Shown: positions 20,009 through 52,798 of the stretch, piece by piece
How the letters are laid out: every line of letters begins with the position of its first letter
How positions within the stretch are numbered: position 1 is the first letter of the stretch
From: Candidatus Aminicenantes bacterium JdFR-78
GTDB taxonomy: Bacteria; Acidobacteriota; Aminicenantia; JdFR-78
Reading direction: 5' to 3'
Assembly: GCA_002010665.1 (NCBI GenBank)
Contig: MTON01000022.1
Span: forward strand, 59,966 to 123,965
DNA: 64,000 bases
Notes under the pieces: model-generated
What the model was told of the DNA's origin: nothing
Databases searched by the model: none
What the model saw: only the letters and a program-made list of their open reading frames with translations
Translations under genes and position numbers: made by a program

Positions 20009-20629
20009 ATGATGAGTAAAGAAAAGATTAAGAGAGATTTGGATGAAAAAATCGCCTTTAGCTTAGAGAGAATTTCACAGATTTTTAAAATTCTAATATG
20101 GGAGAAAGCAAAGAAAATTAATTTAAGTCCAATACAGATTCAATTTCTCCTCTATTTAAATAATCATGAATCTCTTCAATGTACAGTAACTAACTTGGCT
20201 CGGGAGTTTGCACTCACTCGAGCAACAGTCAGCGATGCTGTAAAATCTTTAATTAATAAGGGTTTGGTCTTAAAGAAAAGGTCAGCAAAGGATGGGCGCA
20301 TTTATACTCTAAAATTGAGCAAGAAAGGGGAAAAAGCTGTCAATGAATTAACAAACTGGTTGAATCCTGTTAAAGAACAACTTGGAAAATTTCCAGAAGA
20401 AGTAAAAGATAGAGTTTTATTTTTTTTGATGAAATTTATAGCTTCTTTCCAGAAAATCGGCGTTATAAACACCGCGAGAATGTGTATAGTATGCATTTAT
20501 TTTAAAGAGAATGCTTTTCCAGGAAGCGATAAGCCACATTACTGTCTTTTAACAAATCAACCCCTTGCTCTCTCTGATTTAAAAATTGATTGTGAAAACA
20601 ATAGACCAAAAATAATGGATAAAAAATAA
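20009..20629 (+). CDS. MarR-family transcriptional regulator with Cys-rich C-terminal extension
   Basis: 206 aa; winged-helix core (LSPIQIQFLLYLNNHE...LAREFALTRATVSDAVKSLINKGLVLKKRSAKDGRIYTLKLSKKG); C-terminal CIVCIY...HYCLL...DCEN cysteines. Confidence 0.7.
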   Translation: MMSKEKIKRDLDEKIAFSLERISQIFKILIWEKAKKINLSPIQIQFLLYLNNHESLQCTVTNLAREFALTRATVSDAVKSLINKGLVLKKRSAKDGRIYTLKLSKKGEKAVNELTNWLNPVKEQLGKFPEEVKDRVLFFLMKFIASFQKIGVINTARMCIVCIYFKENAFPGSDKPHYCLLTNQPLALSDLKIDCENNRPKIMDKK

Positions 20630-20635
20630 ATAATA

Positions 20636-21856
20636 ATGGAGGAAAAAATGAACAAGTTATTCACAAAGAAGGAAGCTTTAAAGGAGTTAATCAAAAGACT
20701 CCATAAAGGAGAAGACCCAAGAAAGATTAAACAGGAATTTAAAGAACTTTTAAAACAGACCGCACCTAATGAAATTGCAAAAGTTGAAGAAGAACTAATA
20801 AAGGAAGGGATGCCAAAAGAAGAAATTCACAAACTCTGTGATGTGCATTTAGCTCTTTTTCAAGAGTCTCTGGGCCAAGAAGAACATATTGCGCCAGAGG
20901 GACACCCTATACATATTCTTATGGAAGAACATAAAATGTTACTTAAATTTTCAGATGAATTGAAAAAAATAATTAATGAGATGAGAGCTTTTAAGGATTT
21001 AAACTCTGCTGGTGAAAAAAGAGAACACTTAATCCATATCATTGAACACTTAAAAAGTTCCGAGAGCCATTATGAAAGAGAGGAAAATGTTCTCTTCCCA
21101 TATCTTGAGAAACATGGAGTCACTCAACCTCCTGCAATTATGTGGATGGAACATAATAAAATAAGAGAAATCAAGAAAGGAATTTACAAGCTTGTTGATG
21201 AATACAAAAAGTTAGTATTCGAAGATTTTGTAAAGAGGTTAGAGGAAAGCGCAATGTCTCTTGCTGAAATATTTTCAAACCATTTTCTTAAAGAAAACAA
21301 AATTCTTTTCCCTACTGCTCTGAATGTAATAAAAGAGGATGAGTGGATAGAAATAAGAAAGGAATTTGATGAACTTGGTTATTGCTGTTTCACTCCTGAA
21401 GTGAAAACATGGGGTCCTGAAATAAAAGCCGGAGAAATTACATCAGAGGAGAAAGAAAATTTAATTAAGTTTGAAACAGGTTCCTTATCTCGTGAAGAAA
21501 TAGAGGGAATTTTTAATACCCTTCCAATTGACATTACCTTTGTGGATAAGGAAGATACAGTGCGATATTTCAGTCAATCTAAGGAAAGAATTTTCACAAG
21601 AACCAAAGCAGTAATAGGTCGAAAAGTTCAGCAATGTCATCCTCAAAAGAGTATTCATATAGTAAATCAGATACTTGAAGATTTCAAAAAAGGAAAAAGA
21701 GAAGTAGCAGAATTCTGGATAAATTTTCAGGGACGACTTATTTACATTCGCTATTTTCCTGTTCGAAATGAAAAAGGAGAATATCTTGGCTGTCTTGAAG
21801 TCACCCAGGATATCTCAGACATAAAAAAGATTGAAGGCGAAAAAAGATTACTTTAA
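20636..21856 (+). CDS. DUF438 / hemerythrin-like HHE cation-binding / PAS sensor protein
   Basis: 406 aa; N-terminal DUF438-like segment (EALKELIKRLHKGEDP...EIHKLCDVHLALF); hemerythrin-type His/Glu motifs (HILMEEHKML, HYEREENVLFPYLEKHG, MWMEHNKIREI); C-terminal PAS-like fold; begins 7 nt after the MarR gene. Confidence 0.75.
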   Translation: MEEKMNKLFTKKEALKELIKRLHKGEDPRKIKQEFKELLKQTAPNEIAKVEEELIKEGMPKEEIHKLCDVHLALFQESLGQEEHIAPEGHPIHILMEEHKMLLKFSDELKKIINEMRAFKDLNSAGEKREHLIHIIEHLKSSESHYEREENVLFPYLEKHGVTQPPAIMWMEHNKIREIKKGIYKLVDEYKKLVFEDFVKRLEESAMSLAEIFSNHFLKENKILFPTALNVIKEDEWIEIRKEFDELGYCCFTPEVKTWGPEIKAGEITSEEKENLIKFETGSLSREEIEGIFNTLPIDITFVDKEDTVRYFSQSKERIFTRTKAVIGRKVQQCHPQKSIHIVNQILEDFKKGKREVAEFWINFQGRLIYIRYFPVRNEKGEYLGCLEVTQDISDIKKIEGEKRLL

Positions 21857-22444
21857 AAAATTAAAATCAAAAGAACTACTTTTTTTAATCCAATAAATTC
21901 GCTTAATTATTATTGGAATAGCTAAAAATAAAGGTAAAAAACTTATCCATAGATTTTTTCCTGTAAGAAGCATAATTATAATATAAATACTTCCTCCAAA
22001 GAAAACAGCTAATTCCATTGCTATAAGAGAGTTTAGAATTAATCCTATAATTAGTGAAATAAGCAAATAAATGGGGTAAAACATAAATAGAATTCCAATA
22101 GAAGTAGCTAAACCAGTACCTCCTTTAAAACCTAAAAAAATTGACCAATTATGCCCACAAATACAAAGAATTGCTCCCAAAATAAAGAAAATATTATTTA
22201 CTTCATTTAATCCTAAATTTAATCCTATTGCACGAGCTAAAAGTACTATGGAGACTCCTTTAGCAAAATCCATTATTCCAACCAAAATTCCCCATTTCCA
22301 TCCAAGAATATCTCCTACATTTCCTGCTCCAGCATTTCCTGAGCCTAAAGTAAATATACTTTTTTTCATTTTCCAATAAACAATGAAAAAGGAAAATGAA
22401 ATAGAACCTATTAGATAAGATATAAATGGGAATAAATAAACCAT
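21848..22444 (-). CDS. plsY: glycerol-3-phosphate acyltransferase PlsY
   Basis: PlsY signature GSGNAGAGNVGDILGWKWG and YLIGSIS near the N-terminus. The track ORF extends to 22486 from a GTG; the family-consistent start is the internal ATG (MVYLFPFISYLIGSIS) at 22444. Confidence 0.8.
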   Translation of the reverse strand: MVYLFPFISYLIGSISFSFFIVYWKMKKSIFTLGSGNAGAGNVGDILGWKWGILVGIMDFAKGVSIVLLARAIGLNLGLNEVNNIFFILGAILCICGHNWSIFLGFKGGTGLATSIGILFMFYPIYLLISLIIGLILNSLIAMELAVFFGGSIYIIIMLLTGKNLWISFLPLFLAIPIIIKRIYWIKKSSSFDFNFLK

Positions 22445-22482
22445 TTTATTAAAAAAAGATTTCCGAGGCCGGGAGGACAAAT

Positions 22483-22629
22483 TCACTCTTTTTTAAAAGC
22501 TGACCAGAACCCCAAAATGCCAATAATTACCCCCACAATAATAAAGTGAATTGGGCTCATCCAAATCTTTGCAATTCCATTAATAATTAGCCACAATCCG
22601 AGAATACCAATTATTATGCCCTTCCACAT
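22483..22629 (-). CDS. small two-helix membrane protein (48 aa)
   Basis: Not in the ORF track. Strong SD AAAGAAAGGAGGTGAGAAAAT before the ATG at 22629. Translation: MWKGIIIGILGLWLIINGIAKIWMSPIHFIIVGVIIGILGFWSAFKKE. Stop TGA at 22483-22485. Confidence 0.5.
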   Translation of the reverse strand: MWKGIIIGILGLWLIINGIAKIWMSPIHFIIVGVIIGILGFWSAFKKE

Positions 22630-22706
22630 ATTTTCTCACCTCCTTTCTTTTAAAAATTAATTTAAGGATTTTCCTCTTTTTACTCCCGGCCTCCTTAGAA
22701 TTTAGA

Positions 22707-22721
22707 GCAAGAAATGTGCCA
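22707..22721 (-). promoter_or_regulatory. sigma-54 (-24/-12) promoter TGGCAC-atttc-TTGC
   Basis: Minus strand reads TGGCACATTTCTTGCT, with GG and GC 12 nt apart as in the consensus TGGCACG-N4-TTGC. The predicted start (about 22695) coincides with the inverted-repeat arm GGAGGCCGGGAG. Confidence 0.55.
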
Positions 22722-22826
22722 GAATAGAAGGATTTTTGCCTTTATTTGTATGTAATTGATTGTAAATAAATTATAAATAATTAGGGAGTTTTTATTTAAT
22801 AGAATCTGTTTTTATTAGTTGAAAAG

Positions 22827-22845
22827 TGCTAATAAAATATTAGCA
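22827..22845. promoter_or_regulatory. 8-3-8 palindrome TGCTAATA-aaa-TATTAGCA plus an extra TTATTAG half-site; candidate enhancer-binding-protein site
   Basis: Perfect dyad about 110 bp upstream of the 22707-22721 sigma-54 promoter. A related half-site TTATTAG at 22813-22819 forms a second dyad with CTAATAA at 22829-22835. Confidence 0.35.
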
Positions 22846-22853
22846 GTTTAAAA

Positions 22854-24260
22854 TCAATTTTTATAATCTTCAGGAAAAATTTTGTTTCTTTTAAGAAGAG
22901 CTTGAAACTGCCTTCTATTCATTCCTATCTCTCGAGCTGCTCTTGATATATTTCCTTTATGTTTACTTAATAAGCTTATAGCAAATTTCCTTTCTACTTC
23001 TGAAGCTGCTCTTTGGCGTGCTATTTTTTTTGCTTTATTAAGTTCCTCTTTTGAGAAAGGAAATTTTACTTGTTCCTCAACAGCACTTAAAATTTCAGAT
23101 GGAATATCTCTTATAGTCAAGTTTCCATCAGGAGAAAGAATGAGCATACGCTTAATACAATTTTCAAGTTCGCGAACATTTCCTGGCCAATGATAGAGAG
23201 AAAAAACACTCAATATCTCTGGAGATACATTTATATTTGCATATCTCGTTAAACTTTTATATTTCTCAATGAAATGATTAACGAGTAAGGGAATATCTTC
23301 TAATCTTTCCCTTAATGGAGGAATTTTGATATTTAAAACGTTCAGTCTATAATACAAATCCATTCTAAAATTCCCTTTTTCTACCTCTTCTTTTAAATTT
23401 CGATTAGATGTGCATATTAATCTTATATTTAAATTTATAGGATTTACTCCTCCAATTCTCGTTATTTCATACTGCTCAATTGCTCTGAGAATCTTGGATT
23501 GAAGATTAAGAGGCATTTCAGCTATCTCATCTAAAAGGAGGGTGCCATTTTCAGCAATTTCGAATTTTCCTTTTTTAGTATAAATTGCTCCTGTAAAGGC
23601 GCCTCGTTCATGACCAAATAGTTCGCTTTCAAGCAGTTCTTTAGGAATGGCAGCACAATTAATAGCAACAAAAGGTCCATTAGCTCGAGGACTGTTTTTA
23701 TGAATGCCTCTTGCAATTAATTCTTTCCCTGTTCCACTTTCTCCCTCAATTAATACTGGCTCATTAGTTTGAGAAATTTGAGCACAAAGTCGAATAATTC
23801 TTTCCATCTCAGGGTTAGCAGTAATAATTTGTTCAAAACCATAATGTTTATCGAGTTCTTTTTTAAGCCTTATATTTTCCTTAATTAAGTTATGATAAGT
23901 CAAGCCTCTTTCAATTATTAATTCAACCTCTTTTATTTTAATTGGTTTTAGTAAATAATCATAAGCCCCTTTTTTCATTGCTTCCACAGCTGATTCAATT
24001 GTTCCATAAGCTGTCATAATAATTATTGGTATATTAGGATTAATTGCTTTTATTTCTTCTAATAAACTTATACCATTTATTCCTGGCAATCTTAAGTCAG
24101 TTAAAACAAGATCTATTTCAAAAGACTTTATAATATTTAGAGCTTCTTTACCATTTGTGGATATTATTATTTCATATCTATCCTTCAAATTAATTTCCAA
24201 AAGTTTACAAAGTTTAATTTCATCATCCACAATAAGAATTTTTTGTTTATTAGTGTTCAT
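22854..24260 (-). CDS. sigma-54-dependent response regulator (NtrC family)
   Basis: 468 aa; receiver domain (ILIVDDE...DLVLTDLRLPG); AAA+ sigma-54 activator core (GESGTGKE, GAFTGA, RELEN); C-terminal Fis-type HTH. Confidence 0.9.
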   Translation of the reverse strand: MNTNKQKILIVDDEIKLCKLLEINLKDRYEIIISTNGKEALNIIKSFEIDLVLTDLRLPGINGISLLEEIKAINPNIPIIIMTAYGTIESAVEAMKKGAYDYLLKPIKIKEVELIIERGLTYHNLIKENIRLKKELDKHYGFEQIITANPEMERIIRLCAQISQTNEPVLIEGESGTGKELIARGIHKNSPRANGPFVAINCAAIPKELLESELFGHERGAFTGAIYTKKGKFEIAENGTLLLDEIAEMPLNLQSKILRAIEQYEITRIGGVNPINLNIRLICTSNRNLKEEVEKGNFRMDLYYRLNVLNIKIPPLRERLEDIPLLVNHFIEKYKSLTRYANINVSPEILSVFSLYHWPGNVRELENCIKRMLILSPDGNLTIRDIPSEILSAVEEQVKFPFSKEELNKAKKIARQRAASEVERKFAISLLSKHKGNISRAAREIGMNRRQFQALLKRNKIFPEDYKN

Positions 24261-26373
24261 GTTTTATTGGAAGATAAATTCTAAATACAGTTCCTTTTCC
24301 TTCAATACTATCAAATGATAGCATGCCACCCAAGTTTTGTGCAATCCTACTTGCCACTGATAAACCCAAACCAGTTCCTTTTTCTTTAGTAGTAAAAAAC
24401 GGATTAAAAATTTTCTCTTTTATCTCGGGTGAGATTCCACATCCAGTATCCCTTATTTCAATAACTATCTTATTTTTTTCTGAAACACGCGAAACAATTT
24501 TCATCTCACCACCATCAGGCATTGCCTCAATAGCATTTAACATCAAATTAATTAAAAGTTGTTCTAATTGATGTTGATCTGAATTTATAGAAGAAATTTT
24601 AGGGTCGCAATCTACTACAATTTTAATTTTTTGCTTAGAAGCTCTATCATGTATGAGAGCAACACATTTATCAATTATATTTTTAATGTTACATAAAGAA
24701 AAATGTGGTTTAGAAGGTCTTGCAAAACTTAGGAAATTATTAATGAATTTATTCAATCTATTAACTTCCTCAAGAATGAATTTTGAAATTTCTTTTCTTG
24801 TTTTACTATTTATATGATTTTTTTGAAGTGTCTCGGCTGAAGCTGAAATAATGCCAAGTGGATTTCTTATTTCATGAGCTATTCCTGCTGAAAGTTCTCC
24901 TAAGGCAATTAGTTTTTGAGAACGAGCCATTATCCTTTCTGCTTCTTTTAATTCTTCAGCCATGACCGCTCTTGAAAGAGCAGCAGAAACATGCTTTGAA
25001 AATAAAAATAAAAGATCTAATTCTTTTTGACTCCAACCCTTCTTAGACAATTTATTACCTAATAGAATTATACCTTCAACTTGGTCTTTATGTAACAAAG
25101 GAAGAATTAAGGAAATCTCTTCCTTGAATAACAATTGAACGATTTGCGATTTTTCGTAAAAAGATTTTAAAAATTCTATTTCAATTGGCAACCTATATTT
25201 TTTGATAAAATTCATTATTTGATCCGAGTTTGAAATTTTAAACTCGGAATAAAAATTAAAAGAACTCACAATTTCATATTTTTTATTTTTTTTATTCAAA
25301 AGAAAAATAGCTACCTTTTTTACATTCAATTGTTTTTTTAGAAAGCTTACAATTTCTGTGGTAATCTCATTTAAGTTTATATTATCAACTAGAAATTCAT
25401 AAAATTCTTCTATTTTTCTTTTCAAACTGTATCTTCCTCTGTAAAAAATCCTATCCACTCCGTACTCCGTGGCTTTCACGAGAGGTCTAGAAAGGATTAC
25501 AATTAATATAATCAAAAGACTTTCTACAATAATTGAACCTTCATGGGTTTTCTTTCCTATCATCTCACCTAAATTCTTTATTAATAAGACATAGATAGCC
25601 ATAACTATTCCAGATAAAATAAAATATGATATTCCCCCTCTAATTATGAAGTAAATATCAAGAAGATGTAATCTTAAAACCGCGATAGCGAAGAAAAGAC
25701 TTATTAATATGGAATATGTACTAAAAAGATAAAGTAATGGAAGACCTAATTTAAGAAAATGATTTGTCAAATCTATTCCAAGTCCAAAAAGTACCATTAA
25801 GGTAATACCTGTAATGAGATATTTTATCTGGGTTTTCTCGCGTGCTGTATTGATTCGTTTTAATGAAGATATAAGATTGCTTATTCCGATTAAAGAAAAT
25901 ATTAAGATAAATGATGACAATGCAATATAAGAAATATAGAAAGATAAAGGTTGATCAGCTACTACATGATGATAATAATAAATATTTCCGAATTCTTTAA
26001 TTTTTTCGAGCCTTATCTCCATAGAGGAGAAAACAAAAGTTAAAAAGAGTGTTGGTAACAAGTAGAAAAGTACAACTCTTTTTTTACTGTTAAAAAAGTT
26101 CGAAATTTTTCTTGGAAATATTGCAGAAAAATGCAGAAAAAAAACTGAGCTGAAGAAAAAGCCAGCTAATCCAATTTTTGCTCCTATATCAGCAAGATAG
26201 TGTGTTTTACTATTGATCATTATAAAATCTCCAATATCCCATACAGCAAATGAAAAAATATAAAGAAATAAAAGGATATTCTCTGTTTTTTTAAAATTGT
26301 GTGATAGAACAATAAAAGCAATACTTAAATTTATGGTGAAAGCTATAATTGAAGGTATAGAATAATAATTCAT
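24250..26373 (-). CDS. sensor histidine kinase with multi-TM N-terminal sensor region
   Basis: 707 aa; about 8 predicted TM helices in the first 290 aa; HisKA (LSAGIAHEIRNPLG) and HATPase_c (NLMLNAIEAM...IEIRDTGCGI...GTGLGLSV) motifs; stop overlaps the response-regulator start. Confidence 0.85.
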   Translation of the reverse strand: MNYYSIPSIIAFTINLSIAFIVLSHNFKKTENILLFLYIFSFAVWDIGDFIMINSKTHYLADIGAKIGLAGFFFSSVFFLHFSAIFPRKISNFFNSKKRVVLFYLLPTLFLTFVFSSMEIRLEKIKEFGNIYYYHHVVADQPLSFYISYIALSSFILIFSLIGISNLISSLKRINTAREKTQIKYLITGITLMVLFGLGIDLTNHFLKLGLPLLYLFSTYSILISLFFAIAVLRLHLLDIYFIIRGGISYFILSGIVMAIYVLLIKNLGEMIGKKTHEGSIIVESLLIILIVILSRPLVKATEYGVDRIFYRGRYSLKRKIEEFYEFLVDNINLNEITTEIVSFLKKQLNVKKVAIFLLNKKNKKYEIVSSFNFYSEFKISNSDQIMNFIKKYRLPIEIEFLKSFYEKSQIVQLLFKEEISLILPLLHKDQVEGIILLGNKLSKKGWSQKELDLLFLFSKHVSAALSRAVMAEELKEAERIMARSQKLIALGELSAGIAHEIRNPLGIISASAETLQKNHINSKTRKEISKFILEEVNRLNKFINNFLSFARPSKPHFSLCNIKNIIDKCVALIHDRASKQKIKIVVDCDPKISSINSDQHQLEQLLINLMLNAIEAMPDGGEMKIVSRVSEKNKIVIEIRDTGCGISPEIKEKIFNPFFTTKEKGTGLGLSVASRIAQNLGGMLSFDSIEGKGTVFRIYLPIKHEH

Positions 26374-26708
26374 TTTAATTATACGATTTTAAAGTGGTTT
26401 ATCCCTCCTACAGAAATTGATAATTTGAAATATAAACATTTTTATTGATCTTATAACCCTATTTTCTTTTATATCAGATTATCGAAATATTTTTTGCTAT
26501 AATGACGAATCACTTATACCTTTTTCTTTTACATTGAGAGGTATAACATAGCTAAAATATTAATGTCAAATATCAAAGATTTTTTGAAAGTTTTTTCCTA
26601 TATTGTTACCTTTTTACCCATTTTTATAAAATTTTTTCTAATTATTTAAATTTTCCATAATTTAATCTATTGACAGATAAATAAATTCTAAAAACTTTGT
26701 AAAAAAAA

Positions 26709-26724
26709 TGGCATAAATTTTGCA
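26709..26724 (+). promoter_or_regulatory. sigma-54 (-24/-12) promoter TGGCAT-aaatt-TTGCA
   Basis: GG at 26710-26711 and GC at 26722-26723 (12-nt offset); predicted start about 26735 at AGGAGG, 11 nt before the ATG of the DUF4382-like gene. Confidence 0.55.
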
Positions 26725-26745
26725 TATAAAGATTAGGAGGCAACA

Positions 26746-27267
26746 ATGAAAAAAATAGTATTTCTTACTTCAATATTAGTCATTTTAATCACCTTAACTA
26801 TTATTTATTGTTCCTTGTCTAAGTCCAGACAAATAGGGAATTTGCAGATTTATTTGAAAGATACACCAGTTGAGAATGCGGATAGTATTTATGTCACAAT
26901 AAACCAAGTAAGAGTTCAAAAGACTGGTGGAGGTTTTATCACAGTTTCACAAAGCATCCGAACCTATGATTTATTAAAATTGAGTCAAAAACAAGAACTT
27001 CTATTAGATACTAATTTAGAAGAAGGCATGTATACCCAAATTCGTCTTTCCATTAGCTCAGGTGAAATTATAATCCAAGGAAAATCCTACCAGATGATTG
27101 TTCCTAGTGAAGAGATAAAAATTCCGGTAGTTTTTGAGATCGAAGAGAAAGAAAAGACTAAAATAGTATTAGATTTTGAAGTTGAAAACTCGATTTTAGT
27201 TACAGGCACAGGAGAGAATAAAGTTTATATCCTTAGACCTGTGATAAGAGTAGAAAGCGTAAGTTAA
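26746..27267 (+). CDS. DUF4382-like lipoprotein
   Basis: 173 aa; signal plus Cys lipobox (IIYCS); family-like segments (LQIYLKDTPVENADSIYVTINQVRV, RTYDLLKL, VLDFEVENS). Confidence 0.55.
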   Translation: MKKIVFLTSILVILITLTIIYCSLSKSRQIGNLQIYLKDTPVENADSIYVTINQVRVQKTGGGFITVSQSIRTYDLLKLSQKQELLLDTNLEEGMYTQIRLSISSGEIIIQGKSYQMIVPSEEIKIPVVFEIEEKEKTKIVLDFEVENSILVTGTGENKVYILRPVIRVESVS

Positions 27268-31538: not shown

Positions 31539-32069
31539 TCACTTAAATGGCTCGAAATTTACGAAATCAGCATGATGCACGATGATTGCTTCTACTGTTC
31601 TTTTTACTATTTCCCCCTCTTTAGAATGAGCTGCTATTATATGAACTATTTCCTCAGGAATACCAAATTTATAGGCGAGAGCAGCTCCAGATACTGGATG
31701 CCTTATTATCTTCCCCATTTTACTTTTAATAAATTTTTCTCCTTCCTTTTTAAATTCGTATAATTTTCCCACATCATGAAGGAGTGCACCTGCTATTAAA
31801 TAATCCTGATTTATATGAATTTTTTCTTTATACACATCTATCATTGCATCAGCAATCCTCAAACAAGTAAGAGTTACTGCTCTCGTATGGTTTATTATGT
31901 TTGCAGGAGGATCATCTATTAAAAGAGTAAATGGCATTTCTAGTAAATCTTCTATTTTCCAGTTATTTTCCCTTAAGGCATATTCCCATACCTTAAGAGT
32001 CTTTTCCAATAAATCTTTATCCTGAATCAAATTAAACTCTGGTATTAATTCCATTAATTCCTTTCTCAT
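31539..32069 (-). CDS. HD-domain phosphohydrolase
   Basis: 176 aa; metal-binding H...HD...D pattern (INHTRAV, LLHDVGK, HHADF). Confidence 0.7.
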   Translation of the reverse strand: MRKELMELIPEFNLIQDKDLLEKTLKVWEYALRENNWKIEDLLEMPFTLLIDDPPANIINHTRAVTLTCLRIADAMIDVYKEKIHINQDYLIAGALLHDVGKLYEFKKEGEKFIKSKMGKIIRHPVSGAALAYKFGIPEEIVHIIAAHSKEGEIVKRTVEAIIVHHADFVNFEPFK

Positions 32070-32079
32070 TTTTTACTCC

Positions 32080-32856
32080 TTATAATTTTCTCTCCTCAGG
32101 CCCATCATATTCGTGATCAGTTGGATGTATTTTTCTCATGGGCTTCATTCTCGTTTTTTCCTCATAGATATGAGCTATTAATCCTGGAACTCTTGCCATT
32201 ATGAAAAAGGAATTCCCCAGTTCCTTAGGTATTCCAAGCTCACACAAGAGGGCTGCTATTGCTCCATCAACATTAATTGGTAAAGTCTTTCCTAGCACTT
32301 TTTCAAGGCCTTTCTCAAAGGCTTTTGCAATACTAACATATTTGCCTGAAAACCCGAGTTCTTTAGCTAGAGAAAATAACTTTTGAGTCCTAGGATCCTT
32401 TGTATGAATTCGATGTCCGAATCCGGATATTCTCTCACCTTTTTCTTTCTTTTCTTTTATAATCTCCGATACAACCTCTTCCTCTGAAAGTCCTTTCTCT
32501 CCCATTCTCTTCAAGGCATCCTCAAAAACTCCCATTGCCTCTTCTATTGCCCCACCATGATATTTGGAAATAGCAAGAATTCCTGCAGAAACCGCACTAT
32601 TTAAATCTGCACCAGTTGACACAACTGTTCGAGCAGTGAGAACAGATGGTGGTGTTGCGCCATGGTCAATTGATGAAACTAATATAGCGTCAATTAACTT
32701 CCCAACCTTTTCTGAAGGAAGTTCTCCCTTTAAAGCGAGATAAATTGCCTGAGAAAATGTAATTCTTCCCATTAATTCATGAAGGGGATAGCCTCTCAGA
32801 AAAATTTTATTAGGTTCTATTTTAGTAATTGCTGTTTTCCAGTGAAGTTCGGACAT
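32080..32856 (-). CDS. ccl: citryl-CoA lyase-like protein (homologue of citrate-synthase / ATP-citrate-lyase C-terminal half)
   Basis: 258 aa; aligns to the C-terminal half of citrate synthase including the catalytic signature GFGHRIHTKDPR and FFIMARVPGLIAHIYEE; follows SucC-like and SucD-like genes in the same order as in fused ATP-citrate lyase. Confidence 0.7.
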   Translation of the reverse strand: MSELHWKTAITKIEPNKIFLRGYPLHELMGRITFSQAIYLALKGELPSEKVGKLIDAILVSSIDHGATPPSVLTARTVVSTGADLNSAVSAGILAISKYHGGAIEEAMGVFEDALKRMGEKGLSEEEVVSEIIKEKKEKGERISGFGHRIHTKDPRTQKLFSLAKELGFSGKYVSIAKAFEKGLEKVLGKTLPINVDGAIAALLCELGIPKELGNSFFIMARVPGLIAHIYEEKTRMKPMRKIHPTDHEYDGPEERKL

Positions 32857-32894
32857 TTTACCTCCTTACCGATTTTTATTTTTTATTATTTCTT

Positions 32895-33797
32895 TTATTT
32901 TAAATTCTGGGAGATTTCAAAGGCTTTTTCCGGTATATCCATAAATGAATCTACTACATGAACTCCTGCTTCTCTCAATCTTTTTACTTTACTTTCATAT
33001 GAGCCCCTTAAACCTTCAATTATTGCACCAGCATGGGAGAATCTGGTGCCTGATTTTGCAGCTTTTCCCCCTATAAAAGCTACTATTGGCTTTGTTACCT
33101 CTCCTTTTTCAATCAATTCAGCGACCCTTTCCTCTTGGGTTGTTCCTATTTCACCAAACATTGCAATTAATTTTGTCTGTTCATCTTCTTCGAAAAGTTT
33201 TATAACTTCTGGAAGAGATAATCCAATTACTGGATCACCTCCAACATGAATAATTGTGCTCTGACCCAATCCCTTTTGGGTCAAATAGTAAGATATTGCA
33301 GAAGTAATACCTCCACTTCTTGAACAAACGCCAACAAAACCCGGCCTAAACCACTGGCGGGCTGTCTCAGCTCTTCCTCCAATCATTCCTAAAATAGCCT
33401 TTCCAGGGGCCAGAAGACCGAGTGTATTTGGCCCAACAAACTTTGCATTTGTTTGACGTGCATATTCTACTATTTCAAGAACATCATAAATCGGGACTCT
33501 ATCAGGAATTAAAACGAGAAGTTTCACTCCTGCCTCTAAAGCCTCAAGAGCAGCATCCTTAACAAGAGGAGCAGGAACAAAAATTACGCTTGCATCAAAT
33601 GGTCCTTTCTCCTCCCATGCCTCCTCAACAGTATCAAAGACTGGCACTCCGAGAACCTCCTCCCCACCTCTTCCAGGTGTTACTCCTGCAACAATATTCG
33701 TTCCGTAATCCTTCATTAATTTTGTTCGTGTTCTTCCCTCTCTACCCGTAATTCCTTGAACCAAAACCCTTGTTTTTTCATTTACTAATATTCCCAT
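32895..33797 (-). CDS. ccsB: succinyl-CoA-synthetase alpha-like subunit (CoA-binding + CoA-ligase); candidate citryl-CoA synthetase small subunit
   Basis: 300 aa; SucD-like motifs VQGITGREG, VCSRSGGIT, GGDPVIG, phospho-His context TRFSHAGAII. Confidence 0.7.
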   Translation of the reverse strand: MGILVNEKTRVLVQGITGREGRTRTKLMKDYGTNIVAGVTPGRGGEEVLGVPVFDTVEEAWEEKGPFDASVIFVPAPLVKDAALEALEAGVKLLVLIPDRVPIYDVLEIVEYARQTNAKFVGPNTLGLLAPGKAILGMIGGRAETARQWFRPGFVGVCSRSGGITSAISYYLTQKGLGQSTIIHVGGDPVIGLSLPEVIKLFEEDEQTKLIAMFGEIGTTQEERVAELIEKGEVTKPIVAFIGGKAAKSGTRFSHAGAIIEGLRGSYESKVKRLREAGVHVVDSFMDIPEKAFEISQNLK

Positions 33798-33798
33798 T

Positions 33799-35358
33799 TT
33801 ACTCTCTTCCCTTTATAAGATTTTCCCTGTATTCCTTCAGTCCGAGAATCGGCAGATAGATATATATTGCTTTCTGTTCATGAAATTGACAGAATATTTC
33901 ACAGGCCAAACATTCAGTGCACCGACCTTTCCTCACCTCCTCTGCATCCATTGATAGAACTGGTTTTCCGTCATCTAATTTCAGAACACCATAAATACAT
34001 TCTTCAACACATCCTTTAGTTTTACACTTTCCGCATCTCTCATGCTCAATAAATACTTTCCCAGTCAATGTTTCAAATGAATATGCATTTTCAGGTTCTT
34101 TAAATTCTTCAATTGGATTAATCTTGTGAATGACTCTTTCTCCCTCCTCAACCAATTTTCTTAACCGTTCAGCACAAAAATCAGGAGAATCATCCCTTCC
34201 ATATCCTTCAACTTTCCCTGGAATATTTTTTAAATAAGTATTTAAGATCTCGATTGCTTTTTCCTCGTAATTTCCTCCGAGTCTGATTACTGCAGGAATT
34301 GAGAGCTTTTCCTCTATAAAAGCTTTAACAAACCCGCGTGCAGAGTGGAACTGTTCCTGAGAAGCAACCCCTGAACCAGATGCAAAATAACCAATTATAT
34401 TTGGTTGAGAGAGAATTATTTTTGCTGCTCGATAGACTTTGGAGGCTGGTGGATTTCCGCTAGTATCACAATAATTTGCTAATCTGAAACCTTTATTTAA
34501 AACAGCATCCATTGACATCATTGAACCTCCACCTCCTGCCCCATGAAAGCCTATATAATTACCTTCTGGGTCAGGGCTTTCAGTCATTTGAAAGAAATAA
34601 AACGTCCCTCTGTAATCCTTTTCTTCCACTTGATACGCAATTTTTTCAAGTTCAGTTGCAGGACGATCAAATTCTCTTGCTATTTCGATACCAAGTTCTG
34701 GATGACGGAATACTGCATAATCATCTACGACCAAATGACAATCTGCTGCAAATATCTCGCCATCTGAAGTTAAAACTAAAGGATTAACTTCAATAGAGCG
34801 TGCATCATATTCAACTGCTAATTCATAGAGCTTCACTAAAAAGCTCGAAAGTTTTAATAATAGTTTTCCCTTTATCCCTGTTTTTCTTATTAGATTTCTT
34901 GCCTCATATGTTTTAAATCCCTTTAATAAATTGATATAATGCTTGGAAATTCTGGAAGGATGTTCTCTGGCAATTTCTTCGATTCCACTTCCACCTACTG
35001 AGCTAAAAATTACCAAAGGGGATTTCCTAGAATCATCAATAACCAGACCAGCGAAGAACTCTCTTTCAATATCGAGCTTCTCCTCCACTAGAATCTTCTC
35101 AACTTTAAAATTTTTAACCTCCATCCCAAATAGTTCTTTGGACAATTCTCGAGCTTCTTCTGGCTTTTCAGCAAATTTAATTCCTCCTAAGGTTGCCCTA
35201 CCTGTTGTCCATACCTGAATTTTTAACACAACAGGTTTAGCTATCTCTTTTGCAATCTGATAAACTTCATCAGGACTTGATGCAACTCTTCCGTGAGGAA
35301 CTTTAATTCCCTTACTTCTCAGTAATTCCTTACTCTGGTATTCATATAGCCTTGCCAC
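33799..35358 (-). CDS. ccsA: succinyl-CoA-synthetase beta-like ATP-grasp subunit fused to C-terminal 2x Cys4 ferredoxin-like domain; candidate citryl-CoA synthetase large subunit
   Basis: 519 aa; N-terminal roughly 400 aa SucC-like (MARLYEYQSKELLRSKGIKVPHG...EVNPLVLTSDGEIFAADCHLVVDDYAVFRHPEL...GAGGGGSMMSMDAV); C-terminal roughly 100 aa with CGKCKTKGCVEEC and CTECLACEIFC cysteine clusters. Confidence 0.7.
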   Translation of the reverse strand: MARLYEYQSKELLRSKGIKVPHGRVASSPDEVYQIAKEIAKPVVLKIQVWTTGRATLGGIKFAEKPEEARELSKELFGMEVKNFKVEKILVEEKLDIEREFFAGLVIDDSRKSPLVIFSSVGGSGIEEIAREHPSRISKHYINLLKGFKTYEARNLIRKTGIKGKLLLKLSSFLVKLYELAVEYDARSIEVNPLVLTSDGEIFAADCHLVVDDYAVFRHPELGIEIAREFDRPATELEKIAYQVEEKDYRGTFYFFQMTESPDPEGNYIGFHGAGGGGSMMSMDAVLNKGFRLANYCDTSGNPPASKVYRAAKIILSQPNIIGYFASGSGVASQEQFHSARGFVKAFIEEKLSIPAVIRLGGNYEEKAIEILNTYLKNIPGKVEGYGRDDSPDFCAERLRKLVEEGERVIHKINPIEEFKEPENAYSFETLTGKVFIEHERCGKCKTKGCVEECIYGVLKLDDGKPVLSMDAEEVRKGRCTECLACEIFCQFHEQKAIYIYLPILGLKEYRENLIKGRE

Positions 35359-52003: not shown

Positions 52004-52019
52004 TGGCATGATTTTTGCT
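52004..52019 (+). promoter_or_regulatory. sigma-54 (-24/-12) promoter TGGCAT-gattt-TTGCT
   Basis: GG at 52005-52006 and GC at 52017-52018 (12-nt offset); predicted start about 52030 at AAGGAGG, 16 nt before the ATG at 52046. Confidence 0.5.
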
Positions 52020-52045: not shown

Positions 52046-52798
52046 ATGAAAAAGTTCATAATTATGATGGTTGTTTTAACTCTATTATGTCCCTTATTTG
52101 TTTTTTCCCATTCAATAAAAGTGAAATTTGGAATGTTTTTCCCAAACGCGAGCAGTGATTTGTGGGAAGTGGAATTTGAAAATATGACTTTTTCAAAAGA
52201 AGATTTCACTGATGGTGTTATAGGCTTTGAATACGAATACGAGATAAATCCATTTTTGAGTTTTCTCCTTGGTGTAACTCCTTATACCAAAAATAAGGTT
52301 GGCGATTATAAAGACTGGGAAGGAGAATATATTCCTGGCTATGGAGATTTTGCCTATCCAAAGGGAGTGATTAGTGGATATCCCATTTCTCATATGTTTG
52401 GAGTGAGTATTACTCCTTTACAATTTTCTTTTAAATTCAATCCATTGGGTAGAAGATCTCCTATAAAGCCTTATTTTGGTGGAGGAATAGGAATATATTT
52501 TTGGAGATGCAAACTTGAGGGACAGACTCCTCTCTTTGACGAAGAACACGAATGGTATGATACTGATTATAATGTTTATATTTATGAGATATGGGAGTCG
52601 TATATTCGAGACGAGAATAATGTTAGTTTTGGGTGGCATGTTATGGCTGGTATAATGTTTCCCCTTGGACATAGAACATCAGTATTCGGTGAATTTAAAT
52701 ATAATAAAGCCCAAGGTGAATTAGATGAATTTATAGGTTTTGAACCTCTTGATTTAAGTGGTTATCAAATCAGCCTTGGTTTTGCTTATAGATTTTAA
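52046..52798 (+). CDS. outer-membrane beta-barrel protein
   Basis: 250 aa; signal peptide (LTLLCPLFVFS); amphipathic beta-strands; C-terminal GFAYRF. Confidence 0.6.
   Translation: MKKFIIMMVVLTLLCPLFVFSHSIKVKFGMFFPNASSDLWEVEFENMTFSKEDFTDGVIGFEYEYEINPFLSFLLGVTPYTKNKVGDYKDWEGEYIPGYGDFAYPKGVISGYPISHMFGVSITPLQFSFKFNPLGRRSPIKPYFGGGIGIYFWRCKLEGQTPLFDEEHEWYDTDYNVYIYEIWESYIRDENNVSFGWHVMAGIMFPLGHRTSVFGEFKYNKAQGELDEFIGFEPLDLSGYQISLGFAYRF

What the first reader, a model, noticed from the sequence alone, without database searches (positions are those of the whole stretch)
22465..27267. Sigma-54 two-component circuit with three near-consensus -24/-12 promoters in one window
Seen in sequence: a multi-TM sensor kinase (24250-26373) and an NtrC-family sigma-54 activator (22854-24260; GAFTGA present). 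They are flanked on both sides by promoters fitting TGGCA(C/T)-N5-TTGC with exact 12-nt GG-to-GC spacing. One is TGGCATAAATTTTGCA (26709-26724, plus strand), 22 nt before a DUF4382-like lipoprotein gene. One is TGGCACATTTCTTGCT (22721-22707, minus strand), before a 48-aa membrane-protein gene. A third is TGGCATGATTTTTGCT at 52004-52019. In all three the predicted start falls on a GGAGG element, giving very short leaders. A perfect 8-3-8 palindrome TGCTAATA-aaa-TATTAGCA (22827-22845) with an extra half-site sits about 110 bp upstream of the minus-strand promoter, the expected enhancer position. Inference: an envelope-remodelling sigma-54 regulon, probably controlled by this TCS.
Basis: partly seen in the sequence, partly recalled or inferred. 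Interest (0 to 1): 0.62.

Follow-up and report, generated by a model that had tools for sequence, protein, structure and literature searches.

The report
Sigma-54 sensor circuit driving a mini-protein
An uncultured Aminicenantes bacterium has an ordinary-type sigma-54 two-component switch whose conserved target is the 48-residue membrane protein gene next door, carried on an mRNA whose two ends are predicted to pair, while the other two sigma-54 promoters in the window show no link to this switch.

Summary
TGGCAY-N5-TTGC occurs exactly three times in 64 kb (0.19 expected). All three copies are intergenic and point at a gene. The kinase (about 7 TM segments, GAF, HisKA, HATPase) and the NtrC-type activator (REC, AAA+ with GAFTGA, HTH_8) look intact.

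In eight related loci (kinase 31-64% identical, plus L131 at 82% nucleotide identity) the order kinase, activator, small SPW-like gene is kept. Seven keep a -24/-12 promoter before the small gene (L093 has a poor -12), and all keep GTGC(T/G)A half-sites after the activator's stop codon (TGCTA-N9-TAGCA in the near clade). This pairing is therefore well supported, though only by inference.

The DUF4382 promoter is absent from three orthologues. The outer-membrane-protein promoter is kept in a 57% orthologue. Neither has the dyad, so nothing ties them to this system.

New here: in the minus-strand promoter the GGAGG is not a Shine-Dalgarno. It starts an 11-nt box (GAGGCYGGGAG) at the predicted +1, and its exact complement follows the small gene's stop codon. 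All six near-clade sequences keep this, with one C:G to U:A covariation. I read it as a stem joining the mRNA's 5' and 3' ends.

Verdict: an unnamed member of a known kind, with a modestly novel RNA feature.

The parts
24250..26373 (-). Sensor histidine kinase: about 7 TM segments (HisKA_7TM-type N-terminus), GAF, HisKA (H500) and HATPase_c.
   Evidence: Pfam. Hydropathy. Homologues carry PF16927. Closest full-length NCBIfam model is PrsK at 169 bits, below the cut-off of 300.
22854..24260 (-). NtrC-family sigma-54 activator (bEBP): REC, AAA+ with GAFTGA, and a Fis-type HTH. It overlaps the kinase stop codon by 11 nt, which suggests an operon.
   Evidence: Pfam. GAFTGA. It falls below every NCBIfam equivalog cut-off, with AtoC at 465 against 714 and PrsR at 407 against 503.
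22826..22846 (.). Dyad GTGCTA-N9-TAGCAG (core TGCTAATA-aaa-TATTAGCA). It is the predicted activator binding site (enhancer), 8 nt past the activator's stop codon and centred about 140 bp upstream of the predicted +1.
   Evidence: Perfect palindrome. The TGCTA and TAGCA half-sites and the 9-nt spacing are invariant in 6 of 6 near-clade sequences, while the centre varies. Distant relatives have TGCGA-N9-TCGCA or TGCGA-N30-TCGCA.
22706..22721 (-). Sigma-54 promoter P2: TGGCACATTTCTTGCT. The predicted +1 is near 22695.
   Evidence: Exact match. Conserved in L131 and L087-L090, and present as TGGTAY-N5-TTGC in L091 and L092. It is the only such match in each of those loci.
22683..22694 (-). 5' arm of the long-range stem: GGAGGCCGGGAG, starting at about +2 of the predicted transcript.
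   Evidence: Inverted repeat I6. Conserved as GAGGCYGGGAG in 6 of 6 sequences. Pairing counted.
22638..22644 (-). The real Shine-Dalgarno of the small gene: AGGAGGT, 8 nt before the ATG.
   Evidence: Invariant in 6 of 6 aligned sequences.
22483..22629 (-). 48-aa two-TM mini-protein, equal to half an SPW-repeat domain. It is the conserved target gene of the module.
   Evidence: Present after the activator gene in all 8 related loci. Profile comparison with the SPW protein of L093 gives 96.9% probability.
22465..22476 (-). 3' arm of the long-range stem: CCTCCCGGCCTC on the minus strand, 7 nt after the stop codon and just before plsY.
   Evidence: It forms the only GC-rich perfect inverted 10-mer pair at 100-400 nt spacing in the window, against 0.03 expected.
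26709..26724 (+). Sigma-54 promoter P1: TGGCATAAATTTTGCA, 21 nt before the DUF4382 ATG. The predicted +1 is near 26735.
   Evidence: Exact match. Not conserved in 3 DUF4382 orthologues. No dyad upstream.
26746..27267 (+). DUF4382 protein with an N-terminal signal or lipoprotein-like segment.
   Evidence: Pfam, 83 bits.
52004..52019 (+). Sigma-54 promoter P3: TGGCATGATTTTTGCT, 26 nt before the OMP ATG.
   Evidence: Exact match. Conserved as TGGCACGAATTTTGCT before the 57%-identical orthologue in L136 and L137. No dyad upstream.
52046..52798 (+). Outer-membrane beta-barrel protein (OMP_b-brl).
   Evidence: Pfam. Homologues.

Best explanation
**Model**
The region is a self-contained sigma-54 two-component module from an Aminicenantes bacterium.
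1. A kinase with about 7 TM segments and a GAF domain phosphorylates an NtrC-type activator.
2. The activator binds the dyad GTGCTA-N9-TAGCAC, which lies just past its own stop codon.
3. From about 140 bp upstream, the activator drives the sigma-54 promoter at 22721-22706.
4. The transcript encodes a 48-residue, two-TM, SPW-like mini-protein.
5. In the near clade the transcript starts within 1-3 nt of an 11-nt GC-rich box. This box pairs with its complement directly after the stop codon. The result closes the roughly 230-nt mRNA into a panhandle.
6. The most likely role of the panhandle is to hide both RNA ends from nucleases. A contribution to 3'-end formation is also possible.

The other two -24/-12 promoters (DUF4382 and OMP) look like genuine sigma-54 promoters. 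I think they are served by other activators encoded outside the window.

**Shown and inferred**
- Shown by sequence: the domains, the motifs, their conservation, and the complementarity with its covariation.
- Inferred: binding of this activator to the dyad, the transcription start, and the role of the stem.
- Speculative: the mini-protein feeds back on the kinase.
For: **Motif statistics**
- 3 exact matches against 0.19 expected.

**Module conservation**
- Kinase, activator and small gene keep their order in L087-L090 (kinase 55-64% identical), L131 (82% nucleotide identity) and L091-L093 (31-40%).
- In these loci the only TGG(C/T)AY-N5-TTGC match is the one before the small gene.

**Dyad**
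- Half-sites and spacing are invariant while the centre varies. This points to conservation of sequence, not only of pairing.
- Distant relatives keep GTGCGA half-sites at N9 or N30 spacing. L092 has a separate canonical terminator between the dyad and the promoter.

**Stem**
- The 10 core pairs hold in 6 of 6 sequences, and one pair switches between C:G (3 sequences) and U:A (3 sequences).
- RNAalifold recovers the stem as the dominant consensus feature.
- It closes the minimum-free-energy fold of each of the six transcripts.
- It is a unique GC-rich inverted pair in the window, with 0.03 expected by chance.

**Small protein**
- It relates to the SPW repeat.

**Promoters P1 and P3**
- P3 is conserved in L136.
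- There is no dyad near P1 or P3.
Against: - There are no experimental data: no mapped RNA ends and no binding assay.
- rpoN is not in the window, and I could not check the rest of the genome.
- The stem rests on six sequences and a single covarying position. That position may reflect one evolutionary event, and the shuffle controls are not significant because the columns barely vary.
- The dyad would also fold as a weak hairpin (-6 to -8.5 kcal/mol). A short U-run follows in four of the six near-clade sequences, so a terminator role cannot be excluded.
- Only one dyad is present, whereas many activators of this type use two or more sites.
- Enhancers can act over kilobases, so control of P1 by this activator is not strictly excluded.
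- The stem boxes are absent from the distant relatives L091-L093.
Confidence: 0.65

Rival explanations
1. One reading: all three promoters form one envelope regulon under this two-component system.
For: Three near-consensus promoters lie in one window. All three products are envelope proteins. P1 diverges from the kinase gene. From general knowledge, NtrC-type enhancers can act over kilobases.
Against: No dyad-like site lies upstream of P1, P3 or the conserved P3 orthologue. P1 is absent from DUF4382 orthologues at 75, 51 and 49% identity. The two-component system and these genes are never neighbours in the other 8 loci. P3 is conserved in a different gene neighbourhood.
Confidence: 0.12
2. 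The palindrome is only the intrinsic terminator of the kinase-activator operon, and a different activator drives the minus-strand promoter.
For: It sits 8 nt after the stop codon. It folds as an 8-bp hairpin of -6.5 kcal/mol, followed by TTTTC.
Against: The terminator scan does not call it. The stem is AT-rich and weak. The half-site sequence is conserved without compensatory drift in 6 of 6 sequences. L088 and L090 have no U-tail. Distant relatives place the same half-sites 30 nt apart, and L092 has its own strong terminator downstream of the dyad.
Confidence: 0.12
3. The two GC-rich boxes act at the DNA level, not as an RNA stem. They could be inverted repeats of an invertible switch or a MITE-like element, or twin binding sites for a protein.
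For: Perfect 11-nt inverted repeats flank a 207-bp segment. The concordant C/T state of both copies would also arise from homogenisation by recombination.
Against: There is only one copy pair in the window. None of the called genes in the loci has a recombinase or transposase Pfam family. All 6 species are in the same orientation, and the window-species contigs retrieved from several samples (L001-L006) are 99.98-100% identical to the window. The enclosed gene is an orthologous, conserved ORF. The 5' box begins at the predicted +1 in every sequence, which fits an RNA-end function.
Confidence: 0.06
4. P1, the DUF4382 promoter, is a chance or non-functional match.
For: It is not conserved in three orthologues. 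There is no recognisable enhancer. About 0.19 chance matches are expected per window.
Against: It is intergenic, correctly oriented and 21 nt before the ATG, with the same TTGC-N12-GGAGG layout as P3. By my estimate, a chance match under those constraints is expected roughly 0.01 times per window.
Confidence: 0.2

Closest known systems
ZraS/ZraR-zraP of E. coli (NtrC-family two-component system with an adjacent sigma-54-dependent small envelope-protein gene)
   Same: A membrane kinase is paired with a REC-AAA+-HTH activator. A dedicated sigma-54 promoter sits next to the system's genes and drives a small envelope protein. In ZraP's case that protein feeds back on the sensor (from my general knowledge).
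   Different: The NCBIfam scores are far below the ZraR and ZraS cut-offs (378 against 760 and 203 against 479). The sensor has about 7 TM segments plus a GAF domain, not a periplasmic metal-binding domain. The target is a 2-TM SPW-like mini-protein, transcribed downstream on the same strand and not divergently.
PrsK/PrsR (PEP-CTERM/XrtA-associated two-component system, TIGR02916 and TIGR02915)
   Same: PrsK is the only named model that aligns along most of the kinase (residues 152-702), including the multi-TM and GAF parts. PrsR is among the best hits for the activator.
   Different: Both fall below the cut-offs (169 against 300 and 407 against 503). I saw no PEP-CTERM, XrtA or EPS genes in the loci examined.
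PspF-pspG and psp-type sigma-54 control of small inner-membrane proteins
   Same: A sigma-54 promoter drives a very small integral membrane protein.
   Different: PspF has no REC domain and is controlled by PspA. Here the activator is a classical response regulator. The mini-protein gave no PspG match in the Pfam scans.
B. subtilis hbs mRNA 5'/3'-UTR interaction (PMC5737220)
   Same: A long-range duplex of similar length joins the 5' and 3' UTRs of a short monocistronic mRNA (14 bp in hbs, 10-14 bp here). In hbs it modulates RNase Y cleavage and access by RNase J1.
   Different: Here the 5' arm begins at the very 5' end of the predicted transcript. The 3' arm sits directly after the stop codon. 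The promoter is sigma-54 dependent. Nothing has been measured.
MgrB-PhoQ and SafA-PhoQ type small-membrane-protein feedback on sensor kinases
   Same: A two-component system induces a small membrane protein. Here the pair stays tightly linked to its kinase across kinase identities from 64% down to 31%.
   Different: This resemblance is hypothetical. No interaction has been tested, and there is no homology.

Membership tests
Sigma-54 (-24/-12) promoter | GG and GC dinucleotides 10 nt apart within TGGCAC-N5-TTGCW | tested here: met
   Three exact TGGCAY-N5-TTGC matches against 0.19 expected.
Sigma-54 (-24/-12) promoter | Intergenic position, oriented towards a downstream gene | tested here: met
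   All three exact matches meet this. The one-mismatch matches all lie inside ORFs.
Sigma-54 (-24/-12) promoter | Conservation upstream of orthologous genes | tested here: inconclusive
   P2 is conserved in 5 near relatives and 2 of the 3 distant relatives. P3 is conserved in 1 of 1 orthologue examined. P1 is absent from 3 of 3 orthologues.
Sigma-54 (-24/-12) promoter | rpoN present in the genome, and an rpoN-dependent start about 12 nt after the GC | not testable with these tools
   No RpoN box in the window. The whole genome (GCA_024179045.1) could not be retrieved, and there are no transcript data.
NtrC-family bacterial enhancer-binding response regulator | REC domain, AAA+ sigma-54 interaction domain with GAFTGA, and a C-terminal Fis-type HTH | tested here: met
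   PF00072, PF00158 (230 bits), PF25601 and PF02954. GAFTGA. Walker A (GESGTGKE) and D55 are visible in the translation.
Named equivalogs AtoC, NtrC, ZraR, PrsR, GlrR | Score above the NCBIfam curated cut-off | tested here: not met
   AtoC 465 against 714, NtrC 428 against 559, PrsR 407 against 503, ZraR 378 against 760.
PrsK (PEP-CTERM system kinase) | Score above the cut-off, plus a PEP-CTERM/XrtA gene context | tested here: not met
   169 bits against 300. No such genes among the neighbours.
HisKA_7TM sensor kinases (PF16927) | N-terminal 7-TM region matching PF16927 | tested here: inconclusive
   The window protein gave no PF16927 hit at E of 0.01 or better. Most homologues, including P0002 and P0005, carry it. 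Hydropathy gives 7-8 segments.
SPW repeat (PF03779) | Match to the SPW profile | tested here: inconclusive
   The window protein has no hit at E of 10 or better. Orthologues score 16-25 bits against a cut-off of 31.5 and cover half the profile. The L093 paralogue scores 57.6 bits. hhalign of the small-protein alignment against L093 gives 96.9% probability.
Intrinsic terminator (as a reading of the palindrome) | GC-containing stem directly followed by a U-run | tested here: not met
   The scan does not report it. The stem has 2 G-C pairs per arm and -6.5 kcal/mol. The U-tail is missing in L088 and L090.
Long-range 5'/3'-UTR duplex (hbs-like) | [quoted passage not shown] | tested here: met
   10 of 10 core pairs hold in 6 of 6 sequences, with one C:G to U:A pair.
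Long-range 5'/3'-UTR duplex (hbs-like) | Effect on RNase cleavage or mRNA stability | not testable with these tools
   Needs experiments.

The most novel reading that the evidence does not exclude
Two linked readings remain open.
1. The kinase (about 7 TM segments plus GAF), the activator and the SPW mini-protein form an uncharacterised, widespread signalling cassette. It occurs in Aminicenantes and Thermodesulfobacteriota, with more than 80 full-length kinase homologues. In this reading the mini-protein is a co-evolving partner of the sensor, acting as an MgrB-like feedback element.
2. In the Aminicenantes branch the mini-protein's sigma-54 transcript is made as a panhandle RNA whose triphosphate 5' end and 3' end are locked in one conserved GC helix. 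That would be a previously undescribed kind of whole-mRNA bracket controlling stability or 3'-end formation.

The repeated neighbourhood of haem-synthesis genes hints at a tetrapyrrole or redox signal sensed through the GAF domain. These genes are ahbD-like, hemE, hemH and hemY in L087 and L088, hemLBDC in L090, and NirJ/AhbD-like radical-SAM genes directly after the SPW gene in L091 and L092.
Probability: 0.3. Interest if true: 0.65.

Novelty: new member of a known kind. Interest (0 to 1): 0.42.

Why it matters
- **A testable regulatory unit for Aminicenantes (OP8).** This phylum has no cultured, genetically tractable members known to me, and its gene regulation is unstudied. The library held no paper that mentions both Aminicenantes and sigma-54. 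This locus gives a compact unit to test: sensor, activator, a predicted 21-bp operator, a -24/-12 promoter and a single tiny target gene. All of it could be rebuilt in E. coli.
- **A first physiological handle on SPW proteins.** The literature searches found no paper linking SPW-repeat proteins to sigma-54 or to this kinase type. A dedicated sensor system controlling one would be a first lead.
- **A clean case of mRNA end-to-end pairing.** If the 5'/3' stem is functional, it would be a phylogenetically supported example outside Firmicutes. That bears on how short mRNAs for membrane mini-proteins are stabilised.
- **A caution for regulon prediction.** Several sigma-54 promoters close to one activator do not make a regulon.

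Tried and rejected
1. **Genome-contig scan with the kinase alignment.** The tool picked generic kinase motifs (IAHEIRNPL, FDPFFTTK). It returned 80 unrelated kinases and no orthologous loci.
2. **Metagenome pattern scan for promoter plus 5' box.** It returned 39 loci, but 38 are GC-rich unrelated sequences without the 3' box. Only L131 belongs to the family, so the stem rests on six sequences.
3. **Rfam.** No family matched at gathering score anywhere in the window. Only noise appeared at E of 10 or better in 22300-22900.
4. **Recurrence of the palindrome or its half-site.** The 8-mer TGCTAATA occurs 4 times against 3.45 expected. The full dyad occurs once. No copy lies near P1 or P3.
5. **Shared k-mers or dyads upstream of P1, P3 and the L136 promoter.** Only A/T-rich words were shared.
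6. **Reading the GGAGG at the predicted +1 of P2 as a Shine-Dalgarno.** Rejected. No start codon follows it, orthologues read GAGGC there, and the real AGGAGGT is 50 nt further on.
7. **MITE or inverton reading of the boxes.** Considered and ranked low (see the rival explanations).
8. **Same-species contigs L001-L006.** They are 99.98-100% identical to the window and add no comparative information.
9. **L131.** It ends 30 nt short of the P1 intergenic region, so the nearest relative could not be used to test P1.

Full report
**1. The observation**

The window is AT-rich, with 28-39% GC in 2-kb windows.

The pattern TGGCAYNNNNNTTGC occurs exactly three times: 22707-22721 (-), 26709-26723 (+) and 52004-52018 (+). 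Dinucleotide shuffles give 0.19 on average, and none of 100 reaches three. With one mismatch allowed there are 7 matches against 4.6 expected. Comparing their positions with the ORF list, I place the four extra matches inside ORFs. Only the exact matches are therefore unusual.

All three exact matches are intergenic and face the next gene.

The two regulatory genes are as described.
- The ORF at 24250-26373 (-) has GAF_3, HisKA and HATPase_c domains. It has 7-8 hydrophobic segments in its first 300 residues. Its homologues carry PF16927 HisKA_7TM.
- The ORF at 22854-24260 (-) has Response_reg, Sigma54_activat (230 bits), AAA_lid_14 and HTH_8 domains. It carries the only GAFTGA in the window.

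The palindrome TGCTAATA-AAA-TATTAGCA is perfect at 22827-22845. Its centre lies 115 bp upstream of the -24 GG.

There are two corrections.
- The minus-strand 16-mer ends at 22706.
- The 'very short leader' applies only to the two plus-strand promoters. The 48-aa gene starts at 22629, about 66 nt after the predicted start, and it has its own AGGAGGT.

**2. Which organism**

The activator protein is encoded, residue for residue, on 14 public contigs. These include two NCBI MAGs (GCA_024179045.1 and GCA_024178835.1) and JGI and SRA assemblies. The stretches retrieved from them (L001-L006) are 99.98-100% identical to the window.

The names that sources give to close homologues of the kinase, the DUF4382 protein and the OMP all say Aminicenantes or Aminicenantia.

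No rpoN lies in the window, and I could not reach the rest of the genome.

**3. What is conserved with the two-component system**

I retrieved loci encoding kinase homologues at three distances:
- 55-64% identical (L087-L090);
- 31-40% identical (L091-L093; homologues at this level are labelled Thermodesulfobacteriota or Deltaproteobacteria);
- L131, at 82% nucleotide identity, from a DNA pattern scan.

In all eight loci the gene order is kinase, activator, then a small hydrophobic ORF of 46-50 aa (109 aa in L093). DUF4382 and the OMP are never neighbours.

The small proteins align well, with W2, G11, W13 and the LGFW motif invariant.
- Several score below threshold against half of the SPW repeat profile PF03779.
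- The 109-aa L093 protein is a full SPW domain at 57.6 bits.
- The alignment matches the L093 protein with 96.9% probability.

The conserved target of the module is therefore a half-SPW, two-TM mini-protein.

**4. The regulatory DNA between the activator and the small gene**

Aligning the six near-clade sequences shows five conserved islands in otherwise diverged non-coding DNA.

(a) *A dyad shortly downstream of the activator's stop codon (8 nt in the window).* It reads GTGCTA-N9-TAGCAC. The half-sites and the 9-nt spacing are invariant, but the centre varies (ATAAAATAT, ACTTTTTAG, ACGCTTTAT, ATTTTTTTT).

(b) *TGGCAY-N5-TTGC.*

(c) *GAGGCYGGGAG, 12-13 nt after TTGC.*

(d) *AGGAGGT before the ATG.*

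(e) *CTCCCRGCCT after the stop codon.*

The dyad centre lies 140-186 nt upstream of the predicted +1.

The distant relatives also have a -24/-12-like motif before the small gene:
- L091: TGGTATagaaaTTGC;
- L092: TGGTACggatcTTGC;
- L093: a weaker match, TGGCATgatatGTGA.

They also carry related half-sites:
- L092: TTGCGA-N9-TCGCAA;
- L091 and L092: TGCGA-N30-TCGCA;
- L093: GTGCGA-N9-GCGCAG.

Across these related loci the only TGG(C/T)AY-N5-TTGC matches on either strand are the ones at these positions.

The dyad keeps its sequence, not only its ability to pair. The same half-sites occur 30 nt apart in distant relatives. L092 also has a separate strong terminator between the dyad and the promoter. 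For these reasons I read the dyad as the activator's binding site and not merely as the operon terminator.

It could still double as a weak terminator. It folds at -6 to -8.5 kcal/mol, and a short U-run follows in four of the six sequences. The terminator scan does not call it.

That this activator binds here and drives P2 remains an inference from conserved linkage.

**5. The 5'/3' boxes**

In the window, GGAGGCCGGGAG (22694-22683) begins one or two nucleotides after the predicted +1. Its complement CCTCCCGGCCTC (22476-22465) starts 7 nt after the stop codon of the 48-aa gene (repeat finder I6).

This is the only GC-rich perfect inverted 10-mer pair at 100-400 nt spacing in the 64-kb window. 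Random sequences of the same first-order composition give 0.03 per window. The box occurs nowhere else in the window without a mismatch.

All six near-clade sequences have both boxes.
- The ten core pairs form in 6 of 6 sequences.
- One pair is C:G in three sequences and U:A in the other three.
- RNAalifold returns this helix as the main consensus feature of the transcript.
- It closes the minimum-free-energy fold of each transcript taken alone.

The limits are real. There are only six sequences and one covarying column, which may reflect a single evolutionary event. The shuffle controls are not significant because the columns barely vary. The boxes are absent from L091-L093.

Rfam has nothing here.

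The closest described analogue is the 14-bp 5'/3'-UTR interaction of B. subtilis hbs mRNA, which modulates RNase Y cleavage (PMC5737220). The 5' arm here includes the first nucleotides of the predicted transcript, and the 3' arm sits at its end. The most economical function is therefore protection of both RNA ends. It may also help define the 3' end before plsY, because U-runs start 6-8 nt after the stem in some sequences, though not next to it. This function is inferred and untested.

DNA-level readings (an invertible segment, a MITE, or paired protein sites) are less likely:
- there is a single copy pair in the window;
- no recombinase family is listed for any called gene in the loci;
- the orientation is the same in every assembly;
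- the enclosed gene is an orthologous, conserved ORF.

**6. The other two promoters**

*P3 (52004-52019).* It lies 26 nt before an OMP_b-brl gene. It is conserved as TGGCACGAATTTTGCT, 27 nt before the ATG of a 57%-identical orthologue in a different gene neighbourhood (L136 and L137). It is very likely a real sigma-54 promoter.

*P1 (26709-26724).* It lies 21 nt before the DUF4382 gene. It has no counterpart before orthologues at 75, 51 and 49% identity. L133, the 75% orthologue, comes from the same MAG as L136. P1's position, orientation and layout still make a chance match unlikely, so it may be specific to this lineage.

Neither promoter has a TGCTA-N9-TAGCA-like site within its upstream intergenic region, and the L136 promoter has none either. 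They share no other dyad or word beyond A/T runs. The window has only one activator, so other activators elsewhere in the genome are the likelier partners. Long-range action of this activator on P1, 3.9 kb away, cannot be strictly excluded.

**7. Comparison with known systems**

The activator falls below the curated cut-off of every named NCBIfam equivalog: AtoC 465 against 714, NtrC 428 against 559, PrsR 407 against 503, ZraR 378 against 760.

The kinase's only near-full-length named match is PrsK at 169 against 300. I found no PEP-CTERM context.

The module therefore works like ZraSR-zraP or other NtrC-type systems that have an adjacent dedicated sigma-54 target. It is not a member of any named family.

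The literature searches found no paper linking SPW proteins or HisKA_7TM kinases to sigma-54, and none on sigma-54 in Aminicenantes. The envelope bias of the three products fits the general picture of sigma-54 regulons (PMC3162934).

**8. Verdict**

The circuit is an ordinary kind of thing: a two-component sigma-54 switch. It belongs to an unnamed family that extends beyond Aminicenantes.

Its true conserved target is the neighbouring SPW-like mini-protein gene, not a three-promoter envelope regulon.

The one feature that goes beyond the ordinary is the conserved, covarying end-to-end stem of the mini-protein mRNA. It deserves an experimental test, but for now it rests on six sequences.

Noticed in passing
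L087 10084-13968; L088 5031-8262; L090 9119-13006; L091 8114-9535; L092 7979-9349: Tetrapyrrole genes recur next to the module. L087 and L088 have an AhbD-like radical-SAM gene (432-434 bits, just under the cut-off of 500) followed by hemE, hemH and hemY-like genes. L090 has hemL, hemB, hemD and hemC convergent to the module. L091 and L092 have a NirJ/AhbD-like radical-SAM/SPASM gene starting 27-34 nt after the SPW gene, so it is probably co-transcribed. The window itself has no such genes nearby. This may hint at a haem or redox signal for the GAF kinase.
   Followed up: partly
window 20009-21856: A MarR-family regulator (20009-20629) is directly followed by a DUF438-hemerythrin-PAS_10 protein (20636-21856). 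The pair is convergent with plsY and looks like an O2, NO or iron sensor pair beside the module.
   Followed up: no
window 31539-35358: The genes have the domain make-up of citryl-CoA synthetase (ATP-grasp_2 with Citrate_bind, then CoA_binding with Ligase_CoA) and a short citrate-synthase-like citryl-CoA lyase, with an aconitase next to them. This suggests a two-enzyme citrate cleavage of the reductive TCA type in an Aminicenantes genome.
   Followed up: no
L091 7916-7950: In this distant relative the sigma-54 promoter (TGGTATagaaaTTGC) ends 17 nt before the ATG of the SPW gene, and no Shine-Dalgarno is visible. The predicted transcript would be almost leaderless.
   Followed up: no
L092 7712-7738: A canonical intrinsic terminator (AAAGGCCACTTTTTGAAGTGGCCTTTTTG) sits between the dyad and the sigma-54 promoter. 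This separates the end of the operon from the enhancer in that species.
   Followed up: partly
window 12854-34260 compared with L001-L006: Contigs from at least five independent samples or assemblies (two NCBI MAGs, two JGI metagenomes, two SRA runs) are 99.98-100% identical over 14-21 kb. This looks like a near-clonal population across datasets.
   Followed up: partly
window 22442-22486: The ORF list starts plsY at a GTG at 22486, which would overlap the 3' box and the small gene's stop codon. Other assemblies call shorter versions (198 or 173 aa). The ATG at about 22444 (MVYLFPF), just after the U-run, is the more likely start. plsY may then be read through from the sigma-54 transcript or from the upstream operon.
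   Followed up: no
L095, L098, L104, L112, L117, L124-L126 (metagenome hits): An unrelated GC-rich family also has TGGCACGGAACTTGCAAGC...GGTGAGGC(C/T)GGGAG, followed by a long structured leader and a signal-peptide protein (MRKLLTVLAAIG...). It has a second -24/-12 motif about 100 nt upstream. It looks like a different sigma-54 locus whose 5' sequence happens to share the box.
   Followed up: no
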